Source: a virus
Lineage: Duplodnaviria > Caudoviricetes
IMG/VR virus record: IMGVR_UViG_3300003319_000118
Location: 1-55,635 of that record
Length of the DNA stretch: 55,635 nucleotides
Strand: one strand, 5' to 3'
Shown here one piece after another: positions 710-45,702 of this stretch. The position numbers were made by a program, and so were the translations under genes. The notes below the pieces were generated by a model. That model did not search any database. It saw only the letters and a list, made by a program, of their open reading frames with translations, and was not told where the DNA came from. Numbering within the stretch: the first letter of the stretch is position 1; every line of letters starts with the position of its first letter.

Positions 710-805
710 CACCCGGGCACGAAGTCGGTTGATTCGAACGAACCTTCTCAGGCCAACGCTTCTACTGAAACGCTTGACGCCTGAAGCCGAACCGCTCGGC
801 TCAAG
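710..805 (-). ncRNA. putative TnpB omega RNA 3' part plus guide
   Basis: AGCCGAGCGGTTCGGCT hairpin and TCAGGC...GCCTGAGAAG pairing overlap the tnpB 3' end, as expected for omega RNAs; boundaries uncertain. Confidence 0.55.
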
Positions 806-1909
806 ATAACGAGAGCACTTACATGGTCACGAGGCAGAGACAACCCGCAAGACTGGCAATCATGCCAACGATCCGAAAGCGTTTTGCGAACCTCTGCCCC
901 GCAGGTGCATGTCTGACTTGTACCGTTGGGATTCACACGAACCAGTACGCGCCCGGCGCTCTCAGCCTTGTACGCGATGAAGTTCAGGAATTGCCCCCAT
1001 GCGGCATCCGTGACGGACTTCGCCAACATCGTGCGGGCGAGTCCCTTGATATTCAAATCCTCGACCGCAATCAGGCCGTGATTGTTGACGAGCCAGCGAG
1101 AAAGATTGTGGTGGAAGTCTGCACGTTGGTTACGAACGTGCGCGTGAGCGCGTTGCAGAAGTTGAACCGCCTTGCGTCTCCGATTCGAGCCCTTCTTGCG
1201 GCGTGCCACGCGCCGCTGCGCTCGCCTGAATCTCTTTTGCGCCGCGCGATAGTGGCGCGGATTTTCAATCTCAGTCCCATCATCAAGTGTGGCGAACGCA
1301 GAGAGTCCAACGTCAACGCCAACCCTCGCATCGCACGCGGGCAGCGTCTTTGGTTCACACTCACAGACGAACACGGCAAACCATCGGCCTGCCTCGCGCT
1401 TGATGTGCAACTCTTTGATTTCGCCTTCAACGGGGCGGTGCAGCTTGATTCTGACTTGACCGACCTTCGAGATGCGGAGATGTCTTTCGGTGAGCGCGTG
1501 GCCGATCTGTCGGAAGGTCAAAGAGTCGTAACGACGGAAGGATTTAAAACGTGGGTAGCCCGGCTGTTCGCCTCGCTTCACTCTACGAAAGAAAGCCTTG
1601 AATGCTTTATCCACCCGCTTCAGAACGTCCTCAACTGCGTTGGAGTTTACGCCCGCCAAGTCGGGGCGCAGTTTCTTGATTTCGGGCAGTTGCTTGGACT
1701 GGTCGTAGAAACTGACGGAGACGCGATTCAACTTCCAAGCATCGCGGCGCTCTTGGAGAGCTGCGTTGTAGAGTTCGGCGCACAAGGCAAGTTGGCATTC
1801 AAGTGTCTCGGCCTGAGACTTCGTCGGATAGAGTCTGAATTTGAATGCCTTGAGCATGGCTAATTATAACACCGTCAGTAGTTTGGCGGGAAAATCTCCG
1901 GGCACGAAG
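713..1909 (-). mobile_element. solo tnpB cassette (no tnpA) bounded by 12-bp direct repeat CCGGGCACGAAG
   Basis: Repeat at 713-724 and 1898-1909; cassette is antisense to surrounding early genes. Confidence 0.6.
748..1857 (-). CDS. tnpB: RNA-guided endonuclease TnpB (IS200/IS605 OrfB family)
   Basis: N-term KAFKFRLYPT, GYPRFKS, RuvC-I VGVDVG, RuvC-II IAVEDL, Zn ribbon TSQTCTCG..CQSCG, RuvC-III RD. Confidence 0.95.
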   Translation of the reverse strand: MLKAFKFRLYPTKSQAETLECQLALCAELYNAALQERRDAWKLNRVSVSFYDQSKQLPEIKKLRPDLAGVNSNAVEDVLKRVDKAFKAFFRRVKRGEQPGYPRFKSFRRYDSLTFRQIGHALTERHLRISKVGQVRIKLHRPVEGEIKELHIKREAGRWFAVFVCECEPKTLPACDARVGVDVGLSAFATLDDGTEIENPRHYRAAQKRFRRAQRRVARRKKGSNRRRKAVQLLQRAHAHVRNQRADFHHNLSRWLVNNHGLIAVEDLNIKGLARTMLAKSVTDAAWGQFLNFIAYKAESAGRVLVRVNPNGTSQTCTCGAEVRKTLSDRWHDCQSCGLSLPRDHVSALVILSRAVRLQASSVSVEALA

Positions 1910-6737: not shown

Positions 6738-7814
6738 CTACTCCCCTTTGGTCTTTGACAGCTCGGTCTTAACCTGCTCCCAGTCTTCCGCGTGGAAACC
6801 GCCCGCGAACTGCTCTTCGATCTGTTCAAGCGTGCGCTTCTCATGTTCCATGTAGTCGAGCAGGAAGGCGATGCGTTCCTTCAACTCTTCTTCTGAGAGT
6901 CGCCGATTCGGGTCAGGGGCTTGGCCGCGGAACTGCTCTTCAGAGAGGGTGCGCGAAGCTTGCGAGCGCTCAGGGCGCGTTTTAGGAGCGAAGAGGCGGG
7001 TCAGGTGTGCGGCGGCAAACTTGGCGGCGTCTCCAACGACATCGGTGTTTAAGCGGGCGCGCCGTATCTCGTCGGCCACAAGCCGCAACGCGGGCTGCCA
7101 GTCGCCGCGCCCAGTCTTTAGTTCCCTTTCGAGTTCGCGCAGGGGTCGAAGCTCATCATCATCTGTAGTAGTTGTCTTAATAGAAGTCTTGGGTTCGTCG
7201 GAAGGTCTTTGAAAATCAACGGCTTGACCCCCACCACCCAACACCAGATTTTGGTTGGTGGGTGGGGCCAGATTTTGGTTGGTAGCTGGTTGGTGGGTGG
7301 TCTGTGGCTGGTGGCTGGTGGGTGGTGCCTCCTCCGGCGTCAGGACTTCGTAGTCTGCGCCGGTGTTGTCGCCGCGGACGTAATGGCGGCGGACAAGGCC
7401 GACACGCTCTAAATGCTTCAAGTGTGCCTTCAGGGTGTTGTGGCTCACGCCCGCCCAAGCCATCACCTCATCGAGCGTCGCCCGCACCGTCCGGCGCGGC
7501 ACGACCGCCCCCCGCGTGCGCTGGTATAGGGCGTCATAGGTCTTCTTACTCTCGCCTTTGAACCGTCCCGCCGGCAGCGCATCCCTGACCACCGAGTTCG
7601 GCACGCGAACGAAATCCCGCGCGGGGGCTATAGGGTGGGTGGTAGGTGGTGGCTGGTCGGTGGCTGGTGGGTGGTGGGTGGTCTGCGCCGCGAGTGCAGG
7701 CCCGACCAAATTAAATATCGGGTGGTCGGGCGGCGGGGTAGGCGACTCAAGCGGCTTGGCCGGCTCGCGCACCGGCAGTTTCGAGGTGCGCGGTTTAGGC
7801 TTGGCGTCCTTCAT
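6738..7814 (-). CDS. putative plasmid-type replication initiator (wHTH)
   Basis: FVRVPNSV, wHTH (WAGVSHNTLKAHLKHLERVGLV); coupled to parA; internal DNA repeats. Confidence 0.65.
   Translation of the reverse strand: MKDAKPKPRTSKLPVREPAKPLESPTPPPDHPIFNLVGPALAAQTTHHPPATDQPPPTTHPIAPARDFVRVPNSVVRDALPAGRFKGESKKTYDALYQRTRGAVVPRRTVRATLDEVMAWAGVSHNTLKAHLKHLERVGLVRRHYVRGDNTGADYEVLTPEEAPPTSHQPQTTHQPATNQNLAPPTNQNLVLGGGGQAVDFQRPSDEPKTSIKTTTTDDDELRPLRELERELKTGRGDWQPALRLVADEIRRARLNTDVVGDAAKFAAAHLTRLFAPKTRPERSQASRTLSEEQFRGQAPDPNRRLSEEELKERIAFLLDYMEHEKRTLEQIEEQFAGGFHAEDWEQVKTELSKTKGE
7244..7327. repeat. iteron-like repeats within rep
   Basis: CCAGATTTTGGTTGGT at 7244 and 7268, followed by a TGGN tetramer run; second TGGN run at about 7633-7683. 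Confidence 0.65.
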
Positions 7815-8614
7815 AATTTGCTTACCACGCGCAGGCCGGGGGCGTTCGCCGCCACGCCGATGCGCTCAAGTATCTCATCGGTCAGTTCCGCGTACTGTAC
7901 CGCGCCGCGGCTGTTGGGTGCGTAATACTGAATCGGTTGATGGACGGAAGGGGATTCTTCGAGTTTGGCCTGTGCGTGTATTACGGTGCCGAAGGCTCTC
8001 TCGCCCGACTTCTCCTTGAACTCCATGAGCGACGCGCCCGAGACGTTCATCCGTTTGTCGAACATCGTGCAGACGGTTCCGAGCACGCGCAGGTTTTCGT
8101 TCAGGCCGCGCGCACCATTGATGGCGTCCATCAGGTCTTCAAAGCCGTTCAGCGCGAAGGGGGCGGCCTTGATGGGAATGATGACGAAATCCGCCGCCGC
8201 CAGCGCCGTGGTGAGCAGGAGCCCCAGATTGGGCGGCGTGTCGATGACGGCGAAGTCGTACCGACCCTGCACGGCCTTCAGCGCGCTCCGCAGTTTCGTG
8301 ATCGAAAGGGGGCTCTCGCGCTCGAACTTGGCGAGGTTGATGTTGGCCGCCACCATGTCGAGCTTCGGCACGGCCGTCGTCAGCCCCTTCTCAACAAGTG
8401 ACGCCGCCGGCTCCGACCCCCCGCCGAGCAGTACGTCGGAGAGCGTGGACGTAACCTGCTCGGGGCTGAAGAAGATTTGGGTGGCGTTGCCTTGCGGGTC
8501 GGCGTCTATCAGGAGGGTCTCGTAGTCGCGGATGGCAAGTTCGGTGCCGACGGTCGCGGCCGTCGTGCTCTTACCCACTCCGCCCTTCTGGTTAGCGACA
8601 GCTATTGTAATCAC
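7811..8614 (-). CDS. parA: ParA/Soj partition ATPase
   Basis: NQKGGVGKST, LLIDADPQGNAT, YDFAVIDTPP. Confidence 0.95.
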   Translation of the reverse strand: MITIAVANQKGGVGKSTTAATVGTELAIRDYETLLIDADPQGNATQIFFSPEQVTSTLSDVLLGGGSEPAASLVEKGLTTAVPKLDMVAANINLAKFERESPLSITKLRSALKAVQGRYDFAVIDTPPNLGLLLTTALAAADFVIIPIKAAPFALNGFEDLMDAINGARGLNENLRVLGTVCTMFDKRMNVSGASLMEFKEKSGERAFGTVIHAQAKLEESPSVHQPIQYYAPNSRGAVQYAELTDEILERIGVAANAPGLRVVSKL

Positions 8615-18400: not shown

Positions 18401-18980
18401 TACCCGGTCGCTCTGCTTCATAGAAGGCATCTCCTTGAGCGGTGACTGTTGTATCGAAAATGGTCTCAAAATTCTCCCAGATGCGGGTTATCTTGAGGTC
18501 GGGTGAGAGCGCACCTAAAGACTCGCAGACTCCGATATCGAGAGTGGTGGTATAGACATGATTTACTTCGCCGGGCGTTGGCGGCTTCGGAGCACCTTTA
18601 CCACCGGGTCTGCCTTCGGTCTCGTTCGTGGTGTGAATGATGGATGTGGCGTCGAGCAGGAACCCGGCAGCGCGGAACTTGCCATACCCTCTGAGAATAT
18701 GTTCGCCGTACCCATTTGCCTGTAGTCGAATGTCGTCCATCCGACCGCGGTCAACCTTCGGAACTTTGCGACGCTTGGCAATGTAAATGCCGGCTCCGTA
18801 GCTCACCACGCTAAAGGCAGCGGAGATGGCGATGGTGGCTAGTACCGTGCCACTGAAGGGATCAGAGAGATAGACGCCGCGCGGTCGCACAGGGAAGAGG
18901 CCAGCAAAGGCGAGCACCGCAAGGAAACCCCACAGGATGATGCGGTCGCGGAGGGGGCGGTATCTGATGAGTTGAAGCAT
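15471..18980 (-). CDS. tail tip / host-specificity protein (GTA megatron-like) with CBM-like insert
   Basis: YGEHILRGYG, GSETQDPD..VPAYRGLAHVVF, LLIMDLPALR, VTWVRRER, YTANQQTEDFG..VRVYQES; start at 18980 preferred. Confidence 0.88.
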   Translation of the reverse strand: MLQLIRYRPLRDRIILWGFLAVLAFAGLFPVRPRGVYLSDPFSGTVLATIAISAAFSVVSYGAGIYIAKRRKVPKVDRGRMDDIRLQANGYGEHILRGYGKFRAAGFLLDATSIIHTTNETEGRPGGKGAPKPPTPGEVNHVYTTTLDIGVCESLGALSPDLKITRIWENFETIFDTTVTAQGDAFYEAERPGNTLAGGATTTLDASASGGEVVTLPTNGSIQFNGLYGNGTAVVEFYYKTTAANTVELTPSPLAMFPETLHNTDGEWHVYRTAPFSMTTGFVNTLKIKNTHATTMYVDRACVRISGQATGIINPYTVRSAADDNDTIARYGEIPEPDGDGVTTAQIVAGGNANIRIYNGSETQDPDSAFVALHGVGNVPAYRGLAHVVFDSYVLKEPALPNFNFEVDTGCYDVDDIVQDLYGLVSVDSGVVNVTALSGLALGTDEGFLITSREEAGRWLADLMTCFQFDMVEVDGETKAVLRNGSSVATISADELRAHWKEPGSDEKGDDFEVEITDADPLALPYELSVGFMDALLDYHTNTQSATVGSGVFGDKQTVNLSMILTHSHARQLAATILDQRHIESRTFKIKVPPKYQKLHPGDVFTINTSSGASHTARLGEHAWQLMGVQEMSGVRHAASVYSQSIAGSAGSGYEPPVIPYPGTTKLLIMDLPALRPEDLGGGTMPVRYRAACLQGAGTWRGAFEFKERPIGSGSYQLEGPVDLEAGIGAVVSGTAGTIDRTVWDRSTSFVVDFLPVTSLSSATEEDVNANPELNLLAIGNMADGWYVCQFTTVSAGTPADPYQSRYTVSGLLWDRFGSGVPAAGSLAGLDVVVLNSAVKPMLYPLEDIGVARNYKCPTAGQSVDDAPTVTFTADGTSLKPLPPTDLRGERNSVGDLLVTWVRRERFAASLRDRVGTPLNEEQEVYVFEVYSGATLKRSVRNPNVLIQQTIRWQELDDPGGTLTISTDYTLSHTDDGINVARGTGMDSFAGDFVAEFVINADEPISYLGVLPAAHVSPVGIVNPFDQYKNAGYPYFYCSFSGAVGGKRAWPMGNASYAVDIADGDRISIHRTGSVVRFYKNYASQAAPVPILETSFSASEALRLYFETTANTGNQGLDPSRIQYGKKRGYNYTANQQTEDFGSVQSSVKVRVYQESAVVGRGRYTEATL

Positions 18981-18989
18981 TTGCCGGAA

Positions 18990-19045
18990 ACAGAAAAGAG
19001 GCGCGACCGGAGCCACTAATGCGGCTCAACAATCGCGCCTCTGAT
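18990..19045 (-). promoter_or_regulatory. terminator-like leader hairpin before tail tip gene
   Basis: AGAGGCGCGA...TCGCGCCTCT followed by TTTCTGTTT. Confidence 0.6.
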
Positions 19046-19095
19046 TGAGACACTTTGATAAATTGTGCGGGGGCAAAGAGCGCCCCGGTTGCGGG

Positions 19096-19557
19096 TTAGT
19101 TTAGCATAAGCGAGGGTGCTTTCGCGTTGCTTTCTTCCTTGACTACCCGAGGGCTCTTAATATCTTTCGCTTCGACGTAGCGGAGCTTTTCTTTGTCCTG
19201 CTCAAACTCTTCCTTTGTCGCACGAAATAGCTCGAAGCGAGTGAATAGCTTGCCGGGATGTGCGCGGGCTCTGATGTAGTAAACCTCTCCCGCACGCGCA
19301 TCTATCTCAACTCGGTTCTCTCTCTTCTTTCCGCACTTCACTATCACGAGACCGAGAGGAACACGGGCTATGAAATACCGACCCTCATCAAGCGTTGCTA
19401 ACGCTTCGTCTTTTAGTTCTACTTTTGGAGCAGCCTTGCCAAATGTCGTGTGGTAGAAGTTGCGATAGACGTAGATCGTTGCAAACTCTTCGGTTTGAGC
19501 TTGGGCAGTGAAGGCGTAGGCGAAGATGAGCAGCGCGGACGCGAGCAGTTTTTTCAT
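19096..19557 (-). CDS. secreted DUF2846-like protein (moron)
   Basis: Signal peptide AQA; ATIYVYR..LDEGRYF..GEVYYIR. Confidence 0.7.
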   Translation of the reverse strand: MKKLLASALLIFAYAFTAQAQTEEFATIYVYRNFYHTTFGKAAPKVELKDEALATLDEGRYFIARVPLGLVIVKCGKKRENRVEIDARAGEVYYIRARAHPGKLFTRFELFRATKEEFEQDKEKLRYVEAKDIKSPRVVKEESNAKAPSLMLN

Positions 19558-19564
19558 GGCTTAG

Positions 19565-19861
19565 TCAGCGGGTCGGGATTGACAGGCCGACCCCGAGAAT
19601 CACAAGCACGACTATGAGACACACCGTAACGGCGCTAACGCATATCCAACCCAGCACGATTCCGCCCGCGATAGTGGTCGCCCAAGCCCTTCTATCAACC
19701 ACGACAGCGCCCGCGTCGTAGCGCCTGAAGAAACGACCACAGCGAGGGCAGTGTTCGGCATAGGTCGAGCATTGATGATTGCAGTCGGGGCAGGGGGTCA
19801 GGCGAGCGTTAAGGGACGGCAGTTCGCCCGTATCTCTGACTTGTGCAGGCTGAGGCTCCAT
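19565..19861 (-). CDS. zinc-ribbon membrane protein (moron)
   Basis: CPDC..CPRCG plus C-terminal TM. Confidence 0.7.
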   Translation of the reverse strand: MEPQPAQVRDTGELPSLNARLTPCPDCNHQCSTYAEHCPRCGRFFRRYDAGAVVVDRRAWATTIAGGIVLGWICVSAVTVCLIVVLVILGVGLSIPTR

Positions 19862-19890
19862 GCGGTTGGCTTATATCATGTCCCTGAGAC

Positions 19891-19921
19891 AAAAATAAAG
19901 GGCGGAACCGCAGCCCCACCC
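19891..19921 (-). terminator. intrinsic terminator closing the pentamer array
   Basis: GGGTGGGGC-TGCG-GTTCCGCCC then TTTATTTTT. Confidence 0.75.
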
Positions 19922-19925
19922 CTCA

Positions 19926-20293
19926 TCCTCGCCATGCCATGCCGAACCCCGCCCTACCTGACCCCGCCAATCCCAGCCCCGCCTAGCCTTACCAGACCTA
20001 GCCACGCCGCACCTCGCCGGCCACGCCGCGCCGAGCCTAGCCGTGACTGCCGCGCCAAACCTAACCCGACCTTGCCCGGCCCCGCCTCGCCAGACCATGC
20101 CTTGCCTGCCATGCCGAGCCTAACCGCACCAAGCCCCGCCTCCCATGGCTCGCCCCGCCAAGCCTCACCTCGCCTGCCACGCCATGCCTAACCGTGCCCA
20201 GCCAAACCCGGCCAAACCATGCCGCGCCTGCCCTACTGAGCCACATCTCGCCTCGCCCCACCATACCCGGCCTTGCCTCGGCTGCCCTGCCGC
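19926..20293 (-). ncRNA. GGY-NN pentamer array, VIPR-like guide RNA array
   Basis: About 68 units of GG(C/T)+variable dinucleotide, split by seven 4-nt units (mostly GGCA); starts right after a stop codon and ends at a terminator. Confidence 0.85.
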
Positions 20294-20295
20294 GC

Positions 20296-20550
20296 TTACG
20301 GCGCGATGGCCCGCTCTGCCTTCTCCACGTAGCCGGCCGCTCTTTTCACGCGCGGCTTGTCCGTCTTGCCAGCGAGCCTTTCGAGGGCTTCAAGGCTGCG
20401 CCGGGCCGAACCGATGCGCGCCCGCGCGTCCCGCATCGCGGCGGAGTTGCGGCAGCGGAAGGCGGAGCAGGCGGTGTAGTAAAATATGCAGCGCTCCTCA
20501 CGCGCTGCCCGTATACCATGAAACAACCTATCGTAAAAACCTGTCCTCAC
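20296..20550 (-). pseudogene. probable deletion chimera; C-terminal remnant of the array-associated gene
   Basis: Helical C-term AAMRDARARIGSARRSLEALERL abuts the array; 5' part reads through promoter-like DNA. Confidence 0.45.
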
Positions 20551-20789
20551 GAACTAACCCGCGATGCCCCCAAGTGACCCAACACATCTTTAACGTCCGA
20601 CTGATGCGCCGCCAACAACCCAAGCAGCGTTTGCAGGTCAATAGAGTTTGCATCCATTCCACCATCGTGCCGCGCCTTCCACTCAAACTTAATACTTCCG
20701 TCTCTATAGAACGCCACGCGCGCAGCGTGGTTGCGGCATCCTTCGCGCCGACACGGGACAGGTAAGACAAGCGTCGGTGCTTCGTTCAT
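20547..20789 (-). CDS. small Cys/His zinc-finger-like protein
   Basis: CRREGC...RHDGG; similar to 33175..33387. Confidence 0.65.
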   Translation of the reverse strand: MNEAPTLVLPVPCRREGCRNHAARVAFYRDGSIKFEWKARHDGGMDANSIDLQTLLGLLAAHQSDVKDVLGHLGASRVSS

Positions 20790-21250
20790 CCCTCACCCCA
20801 TAAAACCGGGATGCGGTAGCACGCTCTGAATATTTTGATCCAACGGTCGCTGAACGGTTGGACGGAAACCCGGCCGTGCGGGAAGCCGGGTTCGGGTTGG
20901 CTGGATGGATGCAGGATAAGGGGCGGGTCGTCGTCTGTTAGCCGGACGCCGATGTGACGCATACGGAGTGAAGGTCTGAAGAGATAGATGTCTCCCGCGC
21001 GCGCCTCTTCTTCGGTGAGCCTGACTAGATGCGTCTCAAGCGTTGACTCAATCAGCTTGTAATCGTGCGAATCGGGTCTATAGGTGTTCGGGATGTCAAT
21101 GGGAAGCGTGTAGCCTTGCAGCCCGAGCAGATAAGGTACGACGTGCAGGCAGTCTATCCCTCCGTTGAAGGGATCGCGGCCTTGATGCAGGAAGGGCGTG
21201 CCTTCAATGGCCCACGCATCGCGGATAAATTGTTCTCTGCTCAGGCTCAT
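20786..21250 (-). CDS. NlpC/P60 tail-associated peptidase
   Basis: GTPFLHQGR..GIDC..GDIYLF..HIGV. Confidence 0.88.
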   Translation of the reverse strand: MSLSREQFIRDAWAIEGTPFLHQGRDPFNGGIDCLHVVPYLLGLQGYTLPIDIPNTYRPDSHDYKLIESTLETHLVRLTEEEARAGDIYLFRPSLRMRHIGVRLTDDDPPLILHPSSQPEPGFPHGRVSVQPFSDRWIKIFRACYRIPVLWGEG

Positions 21251-22155
21251 CCTTCCACCACACGCATAGCGGCCTCCAAAGGCACATAGGGCATCCCGCG
21301 AAAGTTAAGTCCGTTGTTAAAGGTTCCTACGCAATCTTCCGCGAATCTTTTCCTACACCCTCTTGTCGCCTTCACCGTGTCCGATGTAGTCATCGGATAA
21401 GGAACAGGTAAGTGCAAAGTAAATTCACCGTTTGACGTGTCGTAAGATTTGACACGATAGGCAGGGAACCCGGCGTTACCGCCAGTCTCAATCTCAATCA
21501 ACCCATTGGTGAAGTAGTCGGCACCTTTGCCTGCCAGACTCGATACTCTGAACACGGTCTGACTCGTGACGGTCGTGATGGCTTTGCCGGTGAAGACGTA
21601 GCCGAGCGCTACAAGATTCAGCCCACAGCGCGCATCACCAAACTCTGCGTCGCACAGCGGTGAGGTCTGACGGCCGATCTGTTGCTGTAGCGCGTTATTG
21701 ATGCCCTTCGCCTCAGCCGTGAACGAGAGCGGGACTTGAATCTTGATGTCTGCAAGTCTGCCGCCTGAGACGGGTAGAACCAGCTCGCCCATTGTCGGCG
21801 CTTCGTAGTTGAGGAGAAACGCATCTACTACCGCACCCTGCCATTTCGGTGTGTTAAGTTCCGCCTCGGTGATTCCGGCCGAGGCGAGAAGGGCGGTCAG
21901 TTCAATATTTGAAGCGTGAGCGCCCGCGGCCGTCTCTAACTGTGAAGCAGCCACACCTGTTGAGTTTTTGAACGTCACGCCGGGGTGTCCCGAGAGCCCC
22001 GTGATGTCGAATGAGGCAGTAGTGAAGGCGATGACCGAGCCGACTTGTGGGGTGACTTTCACGCAGACGGCCATCGTCGACGATGCACCGGCGTAATGGT
22101 CATGCAGCGAATTAGCCGTATACGGCCCTGAGTAATTTCTGATAGCTCGGGTCAT
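21247..22155 (-). CDS. baseplate hub protein (DUF2163)
   Basis: CDAEFGDARCG, YFTNG, GCRKRFAEDC..FNNGLNFRGMPYVP. Confidence 0.88.
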   Translation of the reverse strand: MTRAIRNYSGPYTANSLHDHYAGASSTMAVCVKVTPQVGSVIAFTTASFDITGLSGHPGVTFKNSTGVAASQLETAAGAHASNIELTALLASAGITEAELNTPKWQGAVVDAFLLNYEAPTMGELVLPVSGGRLADIKIQVPLSFTAEAKGINNALQQQIGRQTSPLCDAEFGDARCGLNLVALGYVFTGKAITTVTSQTVFRVSSLAGKGADYFTNGLIEIETGGNAGFPAYRVKSYDTSNGEFTLHLPVPYPMTTSDTVKATRGCRKRFAEDCVGTFNNGLNFRGMPYVPLEAAMRVVEG

Positions 22156-41455: not shown

Positions 41456-42226
41456 CTAAGTTTTCACTTCCGTCTGCTCGATGGACTCGATGACGCGGCG
41501 CGCGGCGTTCTTGATGCTGTCAAGTGAACGGCGGTGATACTCGACACCGCCCTGCTTTACGAGTGCATAGGCTTCCGCGAGGCCGTCCACATCCCACGTC
41601 TTGAACTCAACGCCGGTCAGTCGCTCGAACTTATCGACGGCCTCCTTGAGTTGGTTGTAGGCGTAACCCGCCGACTCACGCCCCCGCGTAAGGCCGTTCT
41701 TGTAGCCCTCGTCAAGAATTCGCTTCCGTTCGGCGTCGGGCATGATGTTGTCCTGCGCGGCGCGGAAGAGTCCGGCGAGGAAGGCGCGGGTGATCGGCTG
41801 CGCTTCGAGTTTCGGGGCTTCAACTTTCACCTTGAGCTTGCCGCCGCTCGGATACATGAGCCCCCACGTCGGGGGGAGTTCGCCGGGCTGCACAATCGAC
41901 TCATCCCCGACAACCAAAAACCAGAAGTCGCAGAAGCGGCAGATGGCGTCCGCCTTCGCTGGCCGCTTCAACTCATTAAGCCAGTCAGCGCGGGAAGCCT
42001 TCACTTCAAAGCCGTAGAGGTAGAGTCCGCGCGACGGCCAGAGCGACATAACCAGCGCATCGGCAGAGCGCGATTTATTGCCGCCCGTCCCGTTGGGCAC
42101 TTCCTCCATGTAGGCGTATGCGTCCTTCGGGTAGCGCTCACGCAGTAGAGCTTTAATCTCGCCCGTGCTGAGCACCTTGCGCTTCGGCTTACTCTCTTGA
42201 AATAGTGTTGGCTCAGCAACGCTCAT
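41456..42226 (-). CDS. PD-(D/E)XK nuclease-like protein (MmcB-like)
   Basis: EEV..RSADAL..GFEVKASRADWLNEL..K..FCDFWFLV. Confidence 0.78.
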   Translation of the reverse strand: MSVAEPTLFQESKPKRKVLSTGEIKALLRERYPKDAYAYMEEVPNGTGGNKSRSADALVMSLWPSRGLYLYGFEVKASRADWLNELKRPAKADAICRFCDFWFLVVGDESIVQPGELPPTWGLMYPSGGKLKVKVEAPKLEAQPITRAFLAGLFRAAQDNIMPDAERKRILDEGYKNGLTRGRESAGYAYNQLKEAVDKFERLTGVEFKTWDVDGLAEAYALVKQGGVEYHRRSLDSIKNAARRVIESIEQTEVKT

Positions 42227-42385
42227 AATCTCTCTCTCCCATGCGTAAGACTTAGGATTCAGTCCTACCTGCTTCTGTGTGTTCAGTTCTACATTTTCCC
42301 TAACTCATCCCTAACTCATCCCTAACCCGCCCGGGTCGGCTCTCAACCGGGAGTGGGTCGGATAACAAGTATTTTCGCGCACCTT

Positions 42386-44361: not shown

Positions 44362-44786
44362 GCGGCCTTACTCCTCTCCGCTCGGTAAACCTCATTCACG
44401 AGCGCGTCGGCCTCCACGTTCTGCGTGCGAGGCACCCATTGAAGCTGAACATTCGCCATGCCCCGCATCAGTTCGCGGATGCGGTCGCGGTAGGGTCTCA
44501 AGTGATCGGCGTTGCAGTCCCACCGCCCGGCGACCTGATTGACCACGAGGGCCGAGTCGCTGAAGACTTCGCCCTCGTGGCCGTTGTCGGACATCCAGCG
44601 CAGGGCGCGACCGACGGCGACGTATTCAGCGACGTTGTTGCTGTACTTCGCTCGACCGCGACCGACACAGCCGCCGTCGCTGGCAACTACGGTGTCGCCA
44701 TCCTTCGCCAGCCACGCCCAGCAGCTCCAACCCGTCGCGGAGAACCGCGGCTCATAGAGACCGTCGCAATAGAGTTTGAGTCTCAT
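44358..44786 (-). CDS. ribonuclease HI family protein
   Basis: LYCDG, SNNVAEY, SDSALVVNQ, WVPRTQNVEADAL. Confidence 0.9.
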   Translation of the reverse strand: MRLKLYCDGLYEPRFSATGWSCWAWLAKDGDTVVASDGGCVGRGRAKYSNNVAEYVAVGRALRWMSDNGHEGEVFSDSALVVNQVAGRWDCNADHLRPYRDRIRELMRGMANVQLQWVPRTQNVEADALVNEVYRAERSKAA

Positions 44787-45472
44787 TGCACCAATCCTCC
44801 CCCTGCGCGGTTCAGTTCGGCTTGTGACTTGGCGGGCGGGGCGTTGCGCTTGAGCACCCCCACGAGATATTCATGCGGATTGGCGCGCGGCTGCATGGAA
44901 GTCGTCGCAATCGCCTCCGCGACCCTTGTGTTGCCGTAATCCTGTGCAAGTTTGGCGAGCAGCGAGCGGGCGTTCTTAGCAGTCATCACTCGCCCGTGTG
45001 TGAGGAGTGGTACGCCCACGTCGAAGATGTTGGGCGCGTTCGCGCCCGTTCCGTTAGGAACGGAATCTGATACTGAAACTGAAGAGGTTTGTTTTTGCTT
45101 GGCGGGTTGCTTGCGGTTTGCTTGAGTTTTGCTTCCACCTGCGCGGCCTGATTTCGCGCGTTCCCTTCTGATTTGCTCGTCCCTCACCATATCCGGCGAG
45201 AAGATAGCCCCAGCTTGATTCCGGTGAGCTACCCCCTTCCGTAATAGTTCGGAGATGCACGCAAGACCTTCGGATATGTCCCCGCCGATGGCCGCAGCGA
45301 TGTCTTCATCACTCCACGGCTCGCCGCCAGAGGCAAGTACCCCACGATCTTCGCACTCAAACATCAGACAGAGCATATCTACCCACGTACCCTTAGCCGC
45401 CTTTGAGCAGCGGCGGAGGCCGGGGTGTTTCATCCAGTCGCCGGGATAGAATGGGAAGTAGGGAAATTTCAC
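44783..45472 (-). CDS. phage replication protein (YdaU/DUF1376-like N-terminus)
   Basis: PYFPFYPGDWM..AAKGTWVDMLCLM. Confidence 0.75.
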   Translation of the reverse strand: MKFPYFPFYPGDWMKHPGLRRCSKAAKGTWVDMLCLMFECEDRGVLASGGEPWSDEDIAAAIGGDISEGLACISELLRKGVAHRNQAGAIFSPDMVRDEQIRRERAKSGRAGGSKTQANRKQPAKQKQTSSVSVSDSVPNGTGANAPNIFDVGVPLLTHGRVMTAKNARSLLAKLAQDYGNTRVAEAIATTSMQPRANPHEYLVGVLKRNAPPAKSQAELNRAGGGLVQ

Positions 45473-45702
45473 AGCCCGCGCCCCCTTTCCACCCGCTTGA
45501 CGTGTGAAGCGTAGACGCCGACCGATACCGTGACCCACAGGACGGCCTTAGTTTCTTCCGTTTCAATGGACTCCACGGGCGCGGTGAACTCGACGCCGTT
45601 TAGGTTGAAAGTGATTTGATCTCCCGGCCGGTAAAGCGAGAGCGCACCAGGAATGACTTGTAGATTGGGCTTGGAAGTAGAGTTGAGACGGCGGCGCGGC
45701 AT
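45469..45702 (-). CDS. hypothetical protein
   Basis: 3' part of track ORF; GTGA coupling. Confidence 0.5.
   Translation of the reverse strand: MPRRRLNSTSKPNLQVIPGALSLYRPGDQITFNLNGVEFTAPVESIETEETKAVLWVTVSVGVYASHVKRVERGRGL

What the first reader, a model, noticed from the sequence alone, without database searches (positions are those of the whole stretch)
20049..20106. One array segment decodes to a ParB-domain motif with the wobble base skipped
Seen: the 11 NN of this segment (- strand order) are AA AT CT GA GG CG AA CG TA TT GC. Read as NNx codons they give K/N-I/M-L-D/E-G-R-K/N-R-Y-F/L-A, compatible with KILDGRNRYLA. This resembles the ILDGRNRY.A core of ParB/Srx N-terminal domains common in phages (family knowledge). 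I saw no such motif in this genome's ORFs. Inference: the guide targets a conserved gene of a competing phage or plasmid, and skipping codon position 3 makes it insensitive to synonymous escape.
Basis: partly seen in the sequence, partly recalled or inferred. Interest (0 to 1): 0.9.

Follow-up and report, generated by a model that had tools for sequence, protein, structure and literature searches.

The report
Wobble-skipping phage guide RNA targeting ParB
This stretch is one guide in a phage-borne VIPR RNA array, a CRISPR-like system first described in 2026, and its two-letter code exactly matches a conserved ParB-type gene motif in other mobile elements while ignoring every third (wobble) base.

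Summary
Window 19931-20291 (minus strand) holds 70 GGY triplets, 57 of 69 spacings exactly 5 nt, cut into seven in-phase segments by -1 phase breaks (mostly GGC-A-GGC).

All 19 of 19 lie in frame on the coding strand and read KILDGR[N/K]RY[L/F]A, in 16 distinct genes. Their N-terminal domain folds as ParB-N. All 11 skipped bases vary among these targets. Two shuffled-NN controls, a 0-skip and a 2-skip pattern each gave 0 hits in IMG/VR. The window has no self-match.

This is the VIPR system (bioRxiv 10.64898/2026.04.26.720920): GGY/NN vrRNAs read by a small RAMP protein (Vipr) under a "1-nt skip rule" aligned to codon wobble. Among 122 other array loci, 85 carry an adjacent protein of about 200 aa, and I modelled one, which is Cas7/Csm3-like. 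The window has none, but the record is only 64% complete, so this may be an orphan ("solo") array. Orphan arrays are also already described.

Verdict: new member of a known kind.

The parts
19931..20291 (-). Whole vrRNA-type array: 70 GGY triplets at 5-nt spacing with variable NN between them. It sits between small ORFs and a Zn-ribbon/TM ORF inside an RcGTA-like tail module.
   Evidence: Rfam gave no match.
20230..20277 (-). Segment S1, 9 NN (AA CG AT GG GA GA GT TC AG). Two triplets are off consensus. It is followed by a single A at 20229.
   Evidence: No target beyond the shuffle null in held loci.
20176..20228 (-). Segment S2, 10 NN, followed by a single A at 20175.
   Evidence: Its NNx pattern gave 0 exact hits in IMG/VR.
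20142..20174 (-). Segment S3, 6 NN with two degenerate triplets (GCC, GGG), followed by a single A at 20141.
   Evidence: My reading.
20108..20140 (-). Segment S4, 6 NN, followed by a single A at 20107.
20049..20106 (-). Segment S5, the finding: 12 GGY and 11 NN. Under the 1-nt skip rule it is a guide that matches the KILDGRNRYLA codons of ParB-N genes.
   Evidence: Controls. No self-match.
20020..20047 (-). Segment S6, 5 NN. The first triplet is degenerate (GTC). It is followed by a single C at 20019.
   Evidence: My reading.
19931..20018 (-). Segment S7, 18 triplets (one GGA) and 17 NN. It may be two guides.
   Evidence: Its first 11 NN gave 0 hits in genome contigs, and nothing beyond the null in held loci.
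19888..19933 (-). Long hairpin formed by the last array units and a U-rich tract. It is the likely 3' end or terminator of the array transcript.
   Evidence: -31.9 kcal/mol, z -3.53, and 1 of 200 shuffles folds as well. The simple terminator scan did not call it.
20488..20508 (-). Terminator-like hairpin plus T run, 190 nt upstream of the array, inside the doubtful ORF 20296-20550. It suggests that the array has its own transcription unit or leader.
   Evidence: sequence.
20547..20789 (-). 80-aa ORF upstream of the array. It has no family match and is not Vipr-like.
19565..19861 (-). 98-aa Zn-ribbon plus transmembrane ORF downstream of the array (moron-like). It is followed by a DUF2846 lipoprotein ORF at 19096-19557.

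Best explanation
The segment at 20049-20106 (minus strand) is one guide of a staggered VIPR RNA (vrRNA) array carried by a phage. In VIPR systems, protomers of a small RAMP protein (Vipr) polymerise along the RNA. Each protomer holds one GGY triplet and presents the adjacent NN for pairing, and the complex binds double-stranded DNA in which every third base is skipped, which represses transcription. That mechanism is shown in the 2026 preprints, not here. What is shown here: the 11 NN of this segment equal codon positions 1-2 of the ParB-N motif K-I-L-D-G-R-N-R-Y-L-A in 16 distinct genes of other viral and metagenomic contigs, the skipped base falls on the wobble, and the match starts and ends exactly at the two phase breaks that bound the segment. 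What is inferred: the array is transcribed from the minus strand, is cut at the GGY-N-GGY junctions, and this guide silences ParB-N genes (some fused to DNA methyltransferases) of competing mobile elements whatever their synonymous codon choice. The held contig has no Vipr gene. My odds are about 50% that this is an orphan (solo) array using a Vipr supplied in trans, about 35% that vipr lies in the missing ~36% of the genome or is of a type my profile misses, and about 15% that the array is no longer used.
For: The array anatomy fits the published definition: GGY/NN pentamers in runs of 9-16 units (paper read). The -1 junctions fit the legend of fig. S18, 'staggered arrays... 1 nt overlapping positions'. 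Across 94 arrays of at least 20 units in 122 other loci plus the window, spacing 5 occurs 3239 times and spacing 4 occurs 277 times, with A as the single base in 202 of those 277. In-phase run length peaks at 9-12 GGY, and this segment has 12. For targets, 3 IMG/VR and 16 metagenome contigs hold an exact match, and 19 of 19 are in frame in ParB-N-like ORFs. Shuffled, 0-skip and 2-skip controls gave 0, 0, 0 and 0 hits in IMG/VR. In 1.2 Mb of held loci, S5 reaches 22 of 22 while 20 shuffles reach at most 18. The target proteins are only 32-50% identical outside the motif, and all 11 wobble positions vary. The target domain has the ParB-N fold, matches PHROG ParB-like families at E 1e-13 to 5e-17, and has plasmid homologs annotated as ParB N-terminal domain or ParB/RepB/Spo0J. 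There is no self-target. Arrays of this type sit within 3 kb of a ~200-aa protein in 85 of 122 other loci. A model of one such protein (pLDDT 91.5) matches Csm3/Cas7/Cmr6 RAMPs at E 6e-6, prob 1.00.
Against: No Vipr homolog was found in the 55.6-kb record, by HMM, hhalign, motif scan or the genome search. That profile represents only one Vipr clade, and the record is 64% complete. There is no expression or processing data, because no RNA run is listed. No target was found for the other six segments: S2 gave 0 hits in IMG/VR, the first 11 NN of S7 gave 0 in genome contigs, and none beats the shuffle null in held loci. The real pattern gave 0 hits in 596 Gb of bacterial genomes. Target contigs span GC 0.34-0.59 against 0.586 for the window, so none is shown to share a host with this phage. 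The metagenome scan had no shuffled control because of its cap, and a 3-skip control was not run. Pfam ParB_N did not reach its own threshold: 1 sub-threshold hit among the 12 target proteins scanned. Invariance of the motif among the hits is partly by construction, since they were selected by exact match.
Confidence: 0.85

Rival explanations
1. The array is a decoy or relic. It no longer guides silencing, and either only soaks up a competitor's Vipr or is decaying, so the ParB match is a leftover of a once-functional guide.
For: No vipr gene is in the record. Several segments are short (5-6 NN) and have degenerate triplets. Six of seven segments have no detected target. Satellite solo vrRNAs that redirect a phage's Vipr to decoy sites are described in 10.64898/2026.10.15.759431 (abstract and section 9).
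Against: S5 is intact, with 12 of 12 GGY and a 22 of 22 match to 16 distinct natural genes. A decaying guide would be expected to have lost that. The array keeps a strong 3' hairpin.
Confidence: 0.1
2. The resemblance is chance. The region is a G-rich pentanucleotide repeat with no guide function, and the ParB reading was picked post hoc among many possible decodings.
For: Other segments decode to nothing recognisable.
Against: With 22 specified bases, about 0.07 hits are expected in 596 Gb at uniform base composition. That is my arithmetic, and 0 were observed there. Against this, 19 exact hits were all in one frame of one protein family, and 4 control patterns gave 0 hits.
Confidence: 0.02
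3. The array acts as a binding platform for a ring- or filament-forming protein that is unrelated to guiding (TRAP-like triplet plus 2-nt spacer RNA, or stacked two-tier G-quadruplexes), or it is a glycine/alanine-rich coding repeat.
For: Triplets spaced by 2 nt in runs of about 11 recall TRAP binding sites (recalled, not from any call). ORFs of 75 and 67 aa are open across the array.
Against: These readings do not explain the exact codon-register match to ParB-N genes, or the association of such arrays with a RAMP-fold protein in 85 of 122 loci. Open frames are expected in GGYNN repeats, because only a TA dinucleotide in one of three registers gives a stop. The flanking small ORFs have no TRAP-family match.
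Confidence: 0.02

Closest known systems
VIPR systems (Vipr RAMP protein plus vrRNA), bioRxiv 10.64898/2026.04.26.720920. Structural mechanism in 10.64898/2026.04.26.720927 (abstract only seen).
   Same: It shares GGY/NN pentanucleotide repeats with conserved GGY and variable NN, and runs within the published 9-16 unit range. It is phage-borne. Natural targets match under the 1-nt skip rule with the skip on the codon wobble. It does not self-target, and its targets lie on other mobile elements.
   Different: No vipr or vap gene lies next to the array or anywhere in the 55.6-kb record. No conserved structured 3' tail follows each guide, unlike type II (SUSP1). The array sits inside a tail-gene module. 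The target is a ParB-N motif, and 'ParB' has 0 occurrences in that paper's main text. Its data S3 could not be seen.
Staggered vrRNA arrays (legend of fig. S18 of the same preprint)
   Same: Guides abut with a one-nucleotide offset. Here every internal boundary is a -1 phase break (GGY-N-GGY, with N = A at 5 of 6 junctions).
   Different: Only the legend was readable. I could not compare the figure, the VIPR type that uses such arrays, or where processing occurs.
Solo/orphan vrRNAs on satellites and VIPR-null phages, bioRxiv 10.64898/2026.10.15.759431
   Same: It is a vrRNA-type array on a phage record without vipr, and it is wobble-aligned to a conserved coding motif of another element.
   Different: The published cases are 1-2 solo vrRNAs in SUSP1-like Enterobacteriaceae phages, at the site of a vipr-vap1 deletion, and they target vipr, other vrRNAs or satellites. 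Here there are seven abutting segments in an unrelated environmental phage, placed between tail genes, and the one target found is a ParB-N gene. The VIPR-null status is unproven because the record is 64% complete.
Class 1 CRISPR crRNA bound by Cas7-family RAMPs
   Same: The partner protein family of such arrays has a Cas7/Csm3-like fold. Guide-target pairing is periodically interrupted.
   Different: There is no repeat-spacer architecture and there are no cas genes. The period is 5 nt in the RNA against 3 nt in the target, rather than a flipped base every 6 nt. The specificity is carried inside the repeats themselves.

Membership tests
VIPR vrRNA (bioRxiv 10.64898/2026.04.26.720920) | Tandem YNNGG / GGY-NN pentanucleotide units, 9-16 per vrRNA | tested here: met
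   S5 has 12 GGY and 11 NN. The array has 70 GGY, and 57 of 69 spacings are 5 nt. The pattern gave 0 matches in 100 shuffles. S3, S4 and S6 are shorter (5-6 NN).
VIPR vrRNA | GGY conserved while NN hypervariable | tested here: met
   By my count, 15 of the 16 possible dinucleotides occur among the 64 NN, and only CC is absent. Five triplets are off consensus.
VIPR vrRNA | A vipr gene (~20 kDa RAMP homolog) in the locus | tested here: not met
   The HMM of the array-adjacent protein cluster gave no hit in the window (best E 0.9). hhalign, a motif scan and the genome search were also negative. The profile covers one clade only, and the record is 64% complete.
VIPR vrRNA | Natural targets under the 1-nt skip rule, with the skip on the codon wobble | tested here: met
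   19 of 19 exact hits are in frame. The 0-skip and 2-skip patterns gave 0 hits. A 3-skip pattern was not run.
VIPR vrRNA | No self-targeting | tested here: met
   0 matches at up to 3 mismatches in the window.
VIPR vrRNA | Expressed as small RNAs (~100 nt in SUSP1) that co-purify with Vipr | not testable with these tools
   No RNA run is listed for this stretch.
Solo/orphan vrRNA on a VIPR-null phage (bioRxiv 10.64898/2026.10.15.759431) | The whole phage genome lacks vipr yet carries vrRNAs | tested here: inconclusive
   vipr is absent from the held 55,635 bp, but the record is linear with a CheckV estimate of 64%.
ParB/Srx N-terminal domain (the target gene) | ParB-N fold | tested here: met
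   The AF2 model of the L124 N-terminal domain has pLDDT 82.7. Foldseek PDB rank 1-2 is 5k5d, pNOB8-like ParB-N (E 9e-5, TMq 0.64-0.72), followed by Spo0J, ParB, KorB, Noc and PadC.
ParB/Srx N-terminal domain (the target gene) | Pfam PF02195 ParB_N at its gathering score | tested here: not met
   Of the 12 target proteins scanned, 1 had a sub-threshold hit (19.0 bits against a cutoff of 26.3) and 1 reached the HTH_ParB cutoff. PHROG ParB-like families did match, at E 1e-13 to 5e-17. TIGR00180 was sub-threshold.
CRISPR array | Direct repeats of about 25-40 nt alternating with unique spacers, with cas genes nearby | tested here: not met
   TRF and the repeat reading show only the 5-nt period. 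The annotated ORFs include no cas-like families. Rfam gave no match.

The most novel reading that the evidence does not exclude
Environmental phages outside the Enterobacteriaceae carry multi-guide orphan vrRNA arrays tucked between tail genes. They have no vipr of their own, and their guides have settled on protein-level invariant active-site motifs (here the ParB-N arginine-helix box). One 11-dinucleotide guide can then silence a whole gene family across many unrelated mobile elements and hosts, using whatever Vipr is present in the cell. That would make such guides 'public' broad-spectrum weapons rather than element-specific ones.
Probability: 0.3. Interest if true: 0.6.

Novelty: new member of a known kind. 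Interest (0 to 1): 0.4.

Why it matters
This is an independent confirmation, from sequence alone, of the VIPR noncontiguous code in a phage unrelated to the published model systems. One natural guide matches 16 different ParB-N genes exactly at codon positions 1-2, while all 11 wobble bases vary. That illustrates clearly why skipping the third base defeats synonymous escape. The case also extends two published observations. Staggered arrays with GGY-A-GGY junctions are common among IMG/VR arrays. Arrays can also sit far from any vipr gene, here inside a tail module, which bears on how widely Vipr proteins are shared or borrowed between elements. Finally, it names a new target class: ParB-N proteins, several of them fused to DNA methyltransferases.

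Tried and rejected
Before I found the literature, I considered a TRAP-like triplet/2-nt-spacer RNA sponge, two-tier G-quadruplexes, a rut site on the C-rich strand, iterons or a centromere, and a coding Gly/Ala repeat. I dropped all of them once the codon-register hits and the RAMP partner appeared.

- **Rfam:** 0 matches at E<=1 over 18500-21500.
- **Vipr in the window:** the cluster HMM was negative. hhalign of 209 ORFs against the cluster alignment gave all probabilities <=0.3, but I forced global mode, so it is a weak test. A regex for the G-loop-like C-terminal motif hit only a likely capsid ORF. The genome search with A1 on G000 and four other vipr-less array records gave 0 of 5, and all five are fragments, 25-64% complete.
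- **Other segments:** the S2 pattern gave 0 hits in IMG/VR. The first 11 NN of S7 gave 0 in genome contigs. S1-S4, S6 and S7 against 1.2 Mb of held loci did not beat shuffles.
- **The S5 guide itself** (Y-coded) was found in no other IMG/VR contig.
- **Other arrays:** 381 segments from other arrays scored against the ParB target contigs showed no excess over shuffles. 11 real segments against 38 shuffled ones reached >=0.85.
- **Target contigs:** no Vipr-like ORF and no array in the 115.7 kb held. blastn found no nucleotide similarity to the window, and the tblastx step of that script printed nothing, so protein-level similarity was not assessed.
- **Expression:** no RNA holder is listed, and read laying was not used.
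- **Other tools:** Supplements and figures of the three VIPR preprints were not seen. Data S3/S4 and fig. S18 may already list ParB targets, staggered-array types or mycobacteriophage loci.
- **Not run:** a 3-skip control, shuffled controls in the metagenome collection, and any search at >=80% NN identity (the collections accept exact patterns only).

Full report
**What is there.** On the minus strand between 20291 and 19909 the window carries 70 GGY triplets in one chain, and 57 of the 69 spacings are exactly 5 nt. A 10-unit GGYNN pattern matches 5 times in the window and never in 100 dinucleotide-preserving shuffles. No other part of the 55.6-kb window shows this periodicity.

Every departure from the 5-nt phase inside the array is a loss of one base (spacings of 4, 9 or 14). 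These breaks cut the array into seven in-phase segments of 9, 10, 6, 6, 11, 5 and 17 dinucleotides, separated by a single base. That base is A at five of the six junctions and C at one (plus my reading). The array ends in a strong hairpin that pairs the last units with a U-rich tract (-31.9 kcal/mol, z -3.5). A terminator-like hairpin lies about 190 nt upstream. Rfam has no match.

**Context.** The window is the whole of an IMG/VR virus record, which is linear and estimated 64% complete by CheckV. The array lies in an RcGTA-like tail module. On one side are the DUF2460, phiJL001-gp84-like and NlpC/P60 genes, and on the other is the Phage-tail_3 host-specificity gene. Small moron-like ORFs sit alongside it: an 80-aa ORF, a Zn-ribbon/TM ORF and a DUF2846 lipoprotein. 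Elsewhere the phage encodes ParA with an HTH partner, a replication initiator-like protein, a primase-helicase, several DNA methyltransferases and a transposase.

**The same kind of array elsewhere.** A distant BLAST of the region hit 27 Mycobacterium phage records. The two I opened (Quico and Mattes) are classified as Cheoctovirus. In both, an intergenic (GGCNN)n array with the same GGC-A-GGC junctions precedes a gene of about 200 aa.

Over 94 arrays of at least 20 units, spacing 5 occurs 3239 times and spacing 4 occurs 277 times, with A as the lone base in 202 of 277. In-phase runs peak at 9-12 triplets. Clustering the ORFs near the arrays gave one dominant family with a median length of 207 aa. 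Its HMM hits 85 of the 122 other array loci within 3 kb of an array, including Quico gp57 at E 9e-54. Pfam has no family for it. An AlphaFold2 model of one member (pLDDT 91.5) matches Csm3, Cas7 and Cmr6 subunits of type III and VII CRISPR complexes (Foldseek E from 6e-6, prob 1.00).

**Literature.** A full-text search led to bioRxiv 10.64898/2026.04.26.720920. I read its abstract, Results, Discussion, Methods sections 18, 20, 26 and 27, and the legends of figs. S17-S19. [quoted passage not shown] A ~20 kDa RAMP protein (Vipr) works with vrRNAs of 9-16 YNNGG repeats, whose NN pair with double-stranded DNA under a "1 nt skip rule". The skipped base falls mostly on the codon wobble, and the targets are competing phages and satellites. 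The paper mentions "staggered arrays" whose vrRNAs overlap by 1 nt.

A companion preprint, 10.64898/2026.04.26.720927 (abstract only), gives the structural basis: a Vipr filament that sequesters each GGY, and a gapped hybrid in a triplex. A third preprint, 10.64898/2026.10.15.759431 (abstract and sections 8, 9 and 17), describes solo or orphan vrRNAs on satellites and on 346 VIPR-null Enterobacteriaceae phages.

The pattern AANATNCTNGANGGNCGNAANCGNTANTTNGC gave 3 exact hits in IMG/VR, 16 in metagenome contigs and 0 in 596 Gb of bacterial genomes. At uniform base composition I expect about 0.07 chance hits in that last collection (my arithmetic).

All 19 of 19 hits lie on the coding strand, with NN at codon positions 1-2. 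They sit in open frames reading KILDGRNRYLA: 17 read it exactly, one has K for N, and one has F for L. They represent 16 distinct 33-mers, and every one of the 11 skipped positions shows two to four different bases among them. Outside the motif the proteins are only 32-50% identical to the first. The invariance of the motif itself is partly by construction, because the set was selected by exact match.

The flanking codons do not continue the neighbouring dinucleotides of the array. They read G, K or D before the motif and C or A after it. The match therefore ends where the phase breaks are.

In the same IMG/VR collection, two patterns with the dinucleotides permuted, one with no skip and one with a 2-nt skip each gave 0 hits. 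Against 1.2 Mb of held loci, S5 scores 22 of 22 while 20 shuffles reach at most 18.

**Is the target ParB-N?** Pfam's ParB_N model does not reach its threshold: there was 1 sub-threshold hit among the 12 proteins scanned, and HTH_ParB reached its cutoff in one. Other evidence does support the assignment:
- PHROG families annotated as ParB-like partition protein or nuclease match at E 1e-13 to 5e-17.
- tblastn finds 40-50%-identical plasmid genes annotated as ParB N-terminal domain-containing or ParB/RepB/Spo0J.
- An AlphaFold2 model of the N-terminal 122 residues (pLDDT 82.7) has pNOB8-like ParB-N, Spo0J, ParB, KorB, Noc and PadC as its top PDB matches (E from 9e-5, prob 1.00, TMq up to 0.72).

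Several targets carry C-terminal DNA methyltransferase domains (N6_N4_Mtase, MT-A70). In the model the motif spans a beta strand and the start of the following helix. From memory, not from a call, that is where the arginine-rich box II of ParB lies.

**Self versus non-self.** The window has no match to the pattern at up to 3 mismatches. It also has no homolog of the target family. Its ParA partner is an HTH protein without a ParB-N match.

**What is missing.** No Vipr-like gene was found in the window. The profile stands for one clade of a family said to be very diverse, and a third of the genome is not held, so absence is not established. Another contig (L081) also has an array squeezed between homologous tail genes with no Vipr in its 21 kb. 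It too is a fragment, 25% complete.

No RNA data exist for the stretch. The other six segments have no identified target. The target contigs held (115.7 kb) carry neither arrays nor Vipr-like genes. They show no nucleotide similarity to the window, and their GC runs from 0.34 to 0.59 against 0.586 for the window. I therefore cannot say which of them, if any, meets this phage in a cell.

**Verdict.** The segment is a vrRNA-type guide whose noncontiguous code matches the most conserved block of a ParB-N gene family, with the skip on the wobble. I put 0.85 on that reading. Whether it works with a Vipr encoded in the missing part of the genome, borrows one in trans as published solo vrRNAs do, or is idle remains open. 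The finding is a correct reading of a real and elegant feature, but since April-October 2026 it belongs to a described kind. It is a new member: an environmental phage, a staggered multi-guide array in a tail module, possibly orphan, with a ParB-N target.

Noticed in passing
L001 2955-3250 (Mycobacterium phage Quico) and L002 2997-3251 (Mattes); 27 Mycobacterium phage records: These mycobacteriophages (Quico and Mattes are classified as Cheoctovirus) carry a (GGCNN)n array with GGC-A-GGC junctions. It sits between a DUF7304 gene and a ~200-aa gene that matches the Vipr-like cluster (Quico gp57, E 9e-54). Some records annotate a 'hypothetical protein' across the array. The first VIPR preprint's main text has 0 occurrences of 'Mycobacter', and its supplements were not seen.
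   Followed up: partly
L081 10559-10865: A second IMG/VR contig has a 57-unit array in nearly the same place, between homologs of the window's DUF2460-like and gp84-like tail genes. It has no Vipr-like gene in its 21-kb record, which is 25% complete.
   Followed up: partly
L017 1985-2351: In this array the guides are separated by a 6-nt GTTCAG/GTTCAA/GTTCAC delimiter instead of a single base. The array is preceded by a near-consensus sigma-70-like promoter (TTGACG, 17 nt, TATACT). This suggests a different array architecture and an own transcription start in the GGY sense.
   Followed up: no
window 6738-8614: A ParA-like ATPase gene (7811-8614) is followed by a 358-aa HTH protein gene (6738-7814). 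That gene contains two G/T-rich short tandem repeat tracts on the plus strand (7276-7327 and 7633-7682). Together with replication genes this looks like a plasmid-prophage lifestyle.
   Followed up: partly
window 45094-45134 and 42297-42326: An 11-nt unit repeated 3.6 times lies inside the replisome-organizer-like gene (44783-45538). A perfect 11-nt unit repeated 2.7 times lies just upstream of the gene at 41456-42226. Both are possible origin iterons.
   Followed up: no
window 748-1857: A 369-aa transposase gene (phrog_506, E 1e-106) lies near the left end of the phage record, so an insertion sequence may sit inside the phage.
   Followed up: no
window 20296-20550: The 84-aa GTG-started ORF just upstream of the array contains a terminator-like hairpin (20508-20488) and has no family match. 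It may be an RNA leader of the array rather than a gene.
   Followed up: partly
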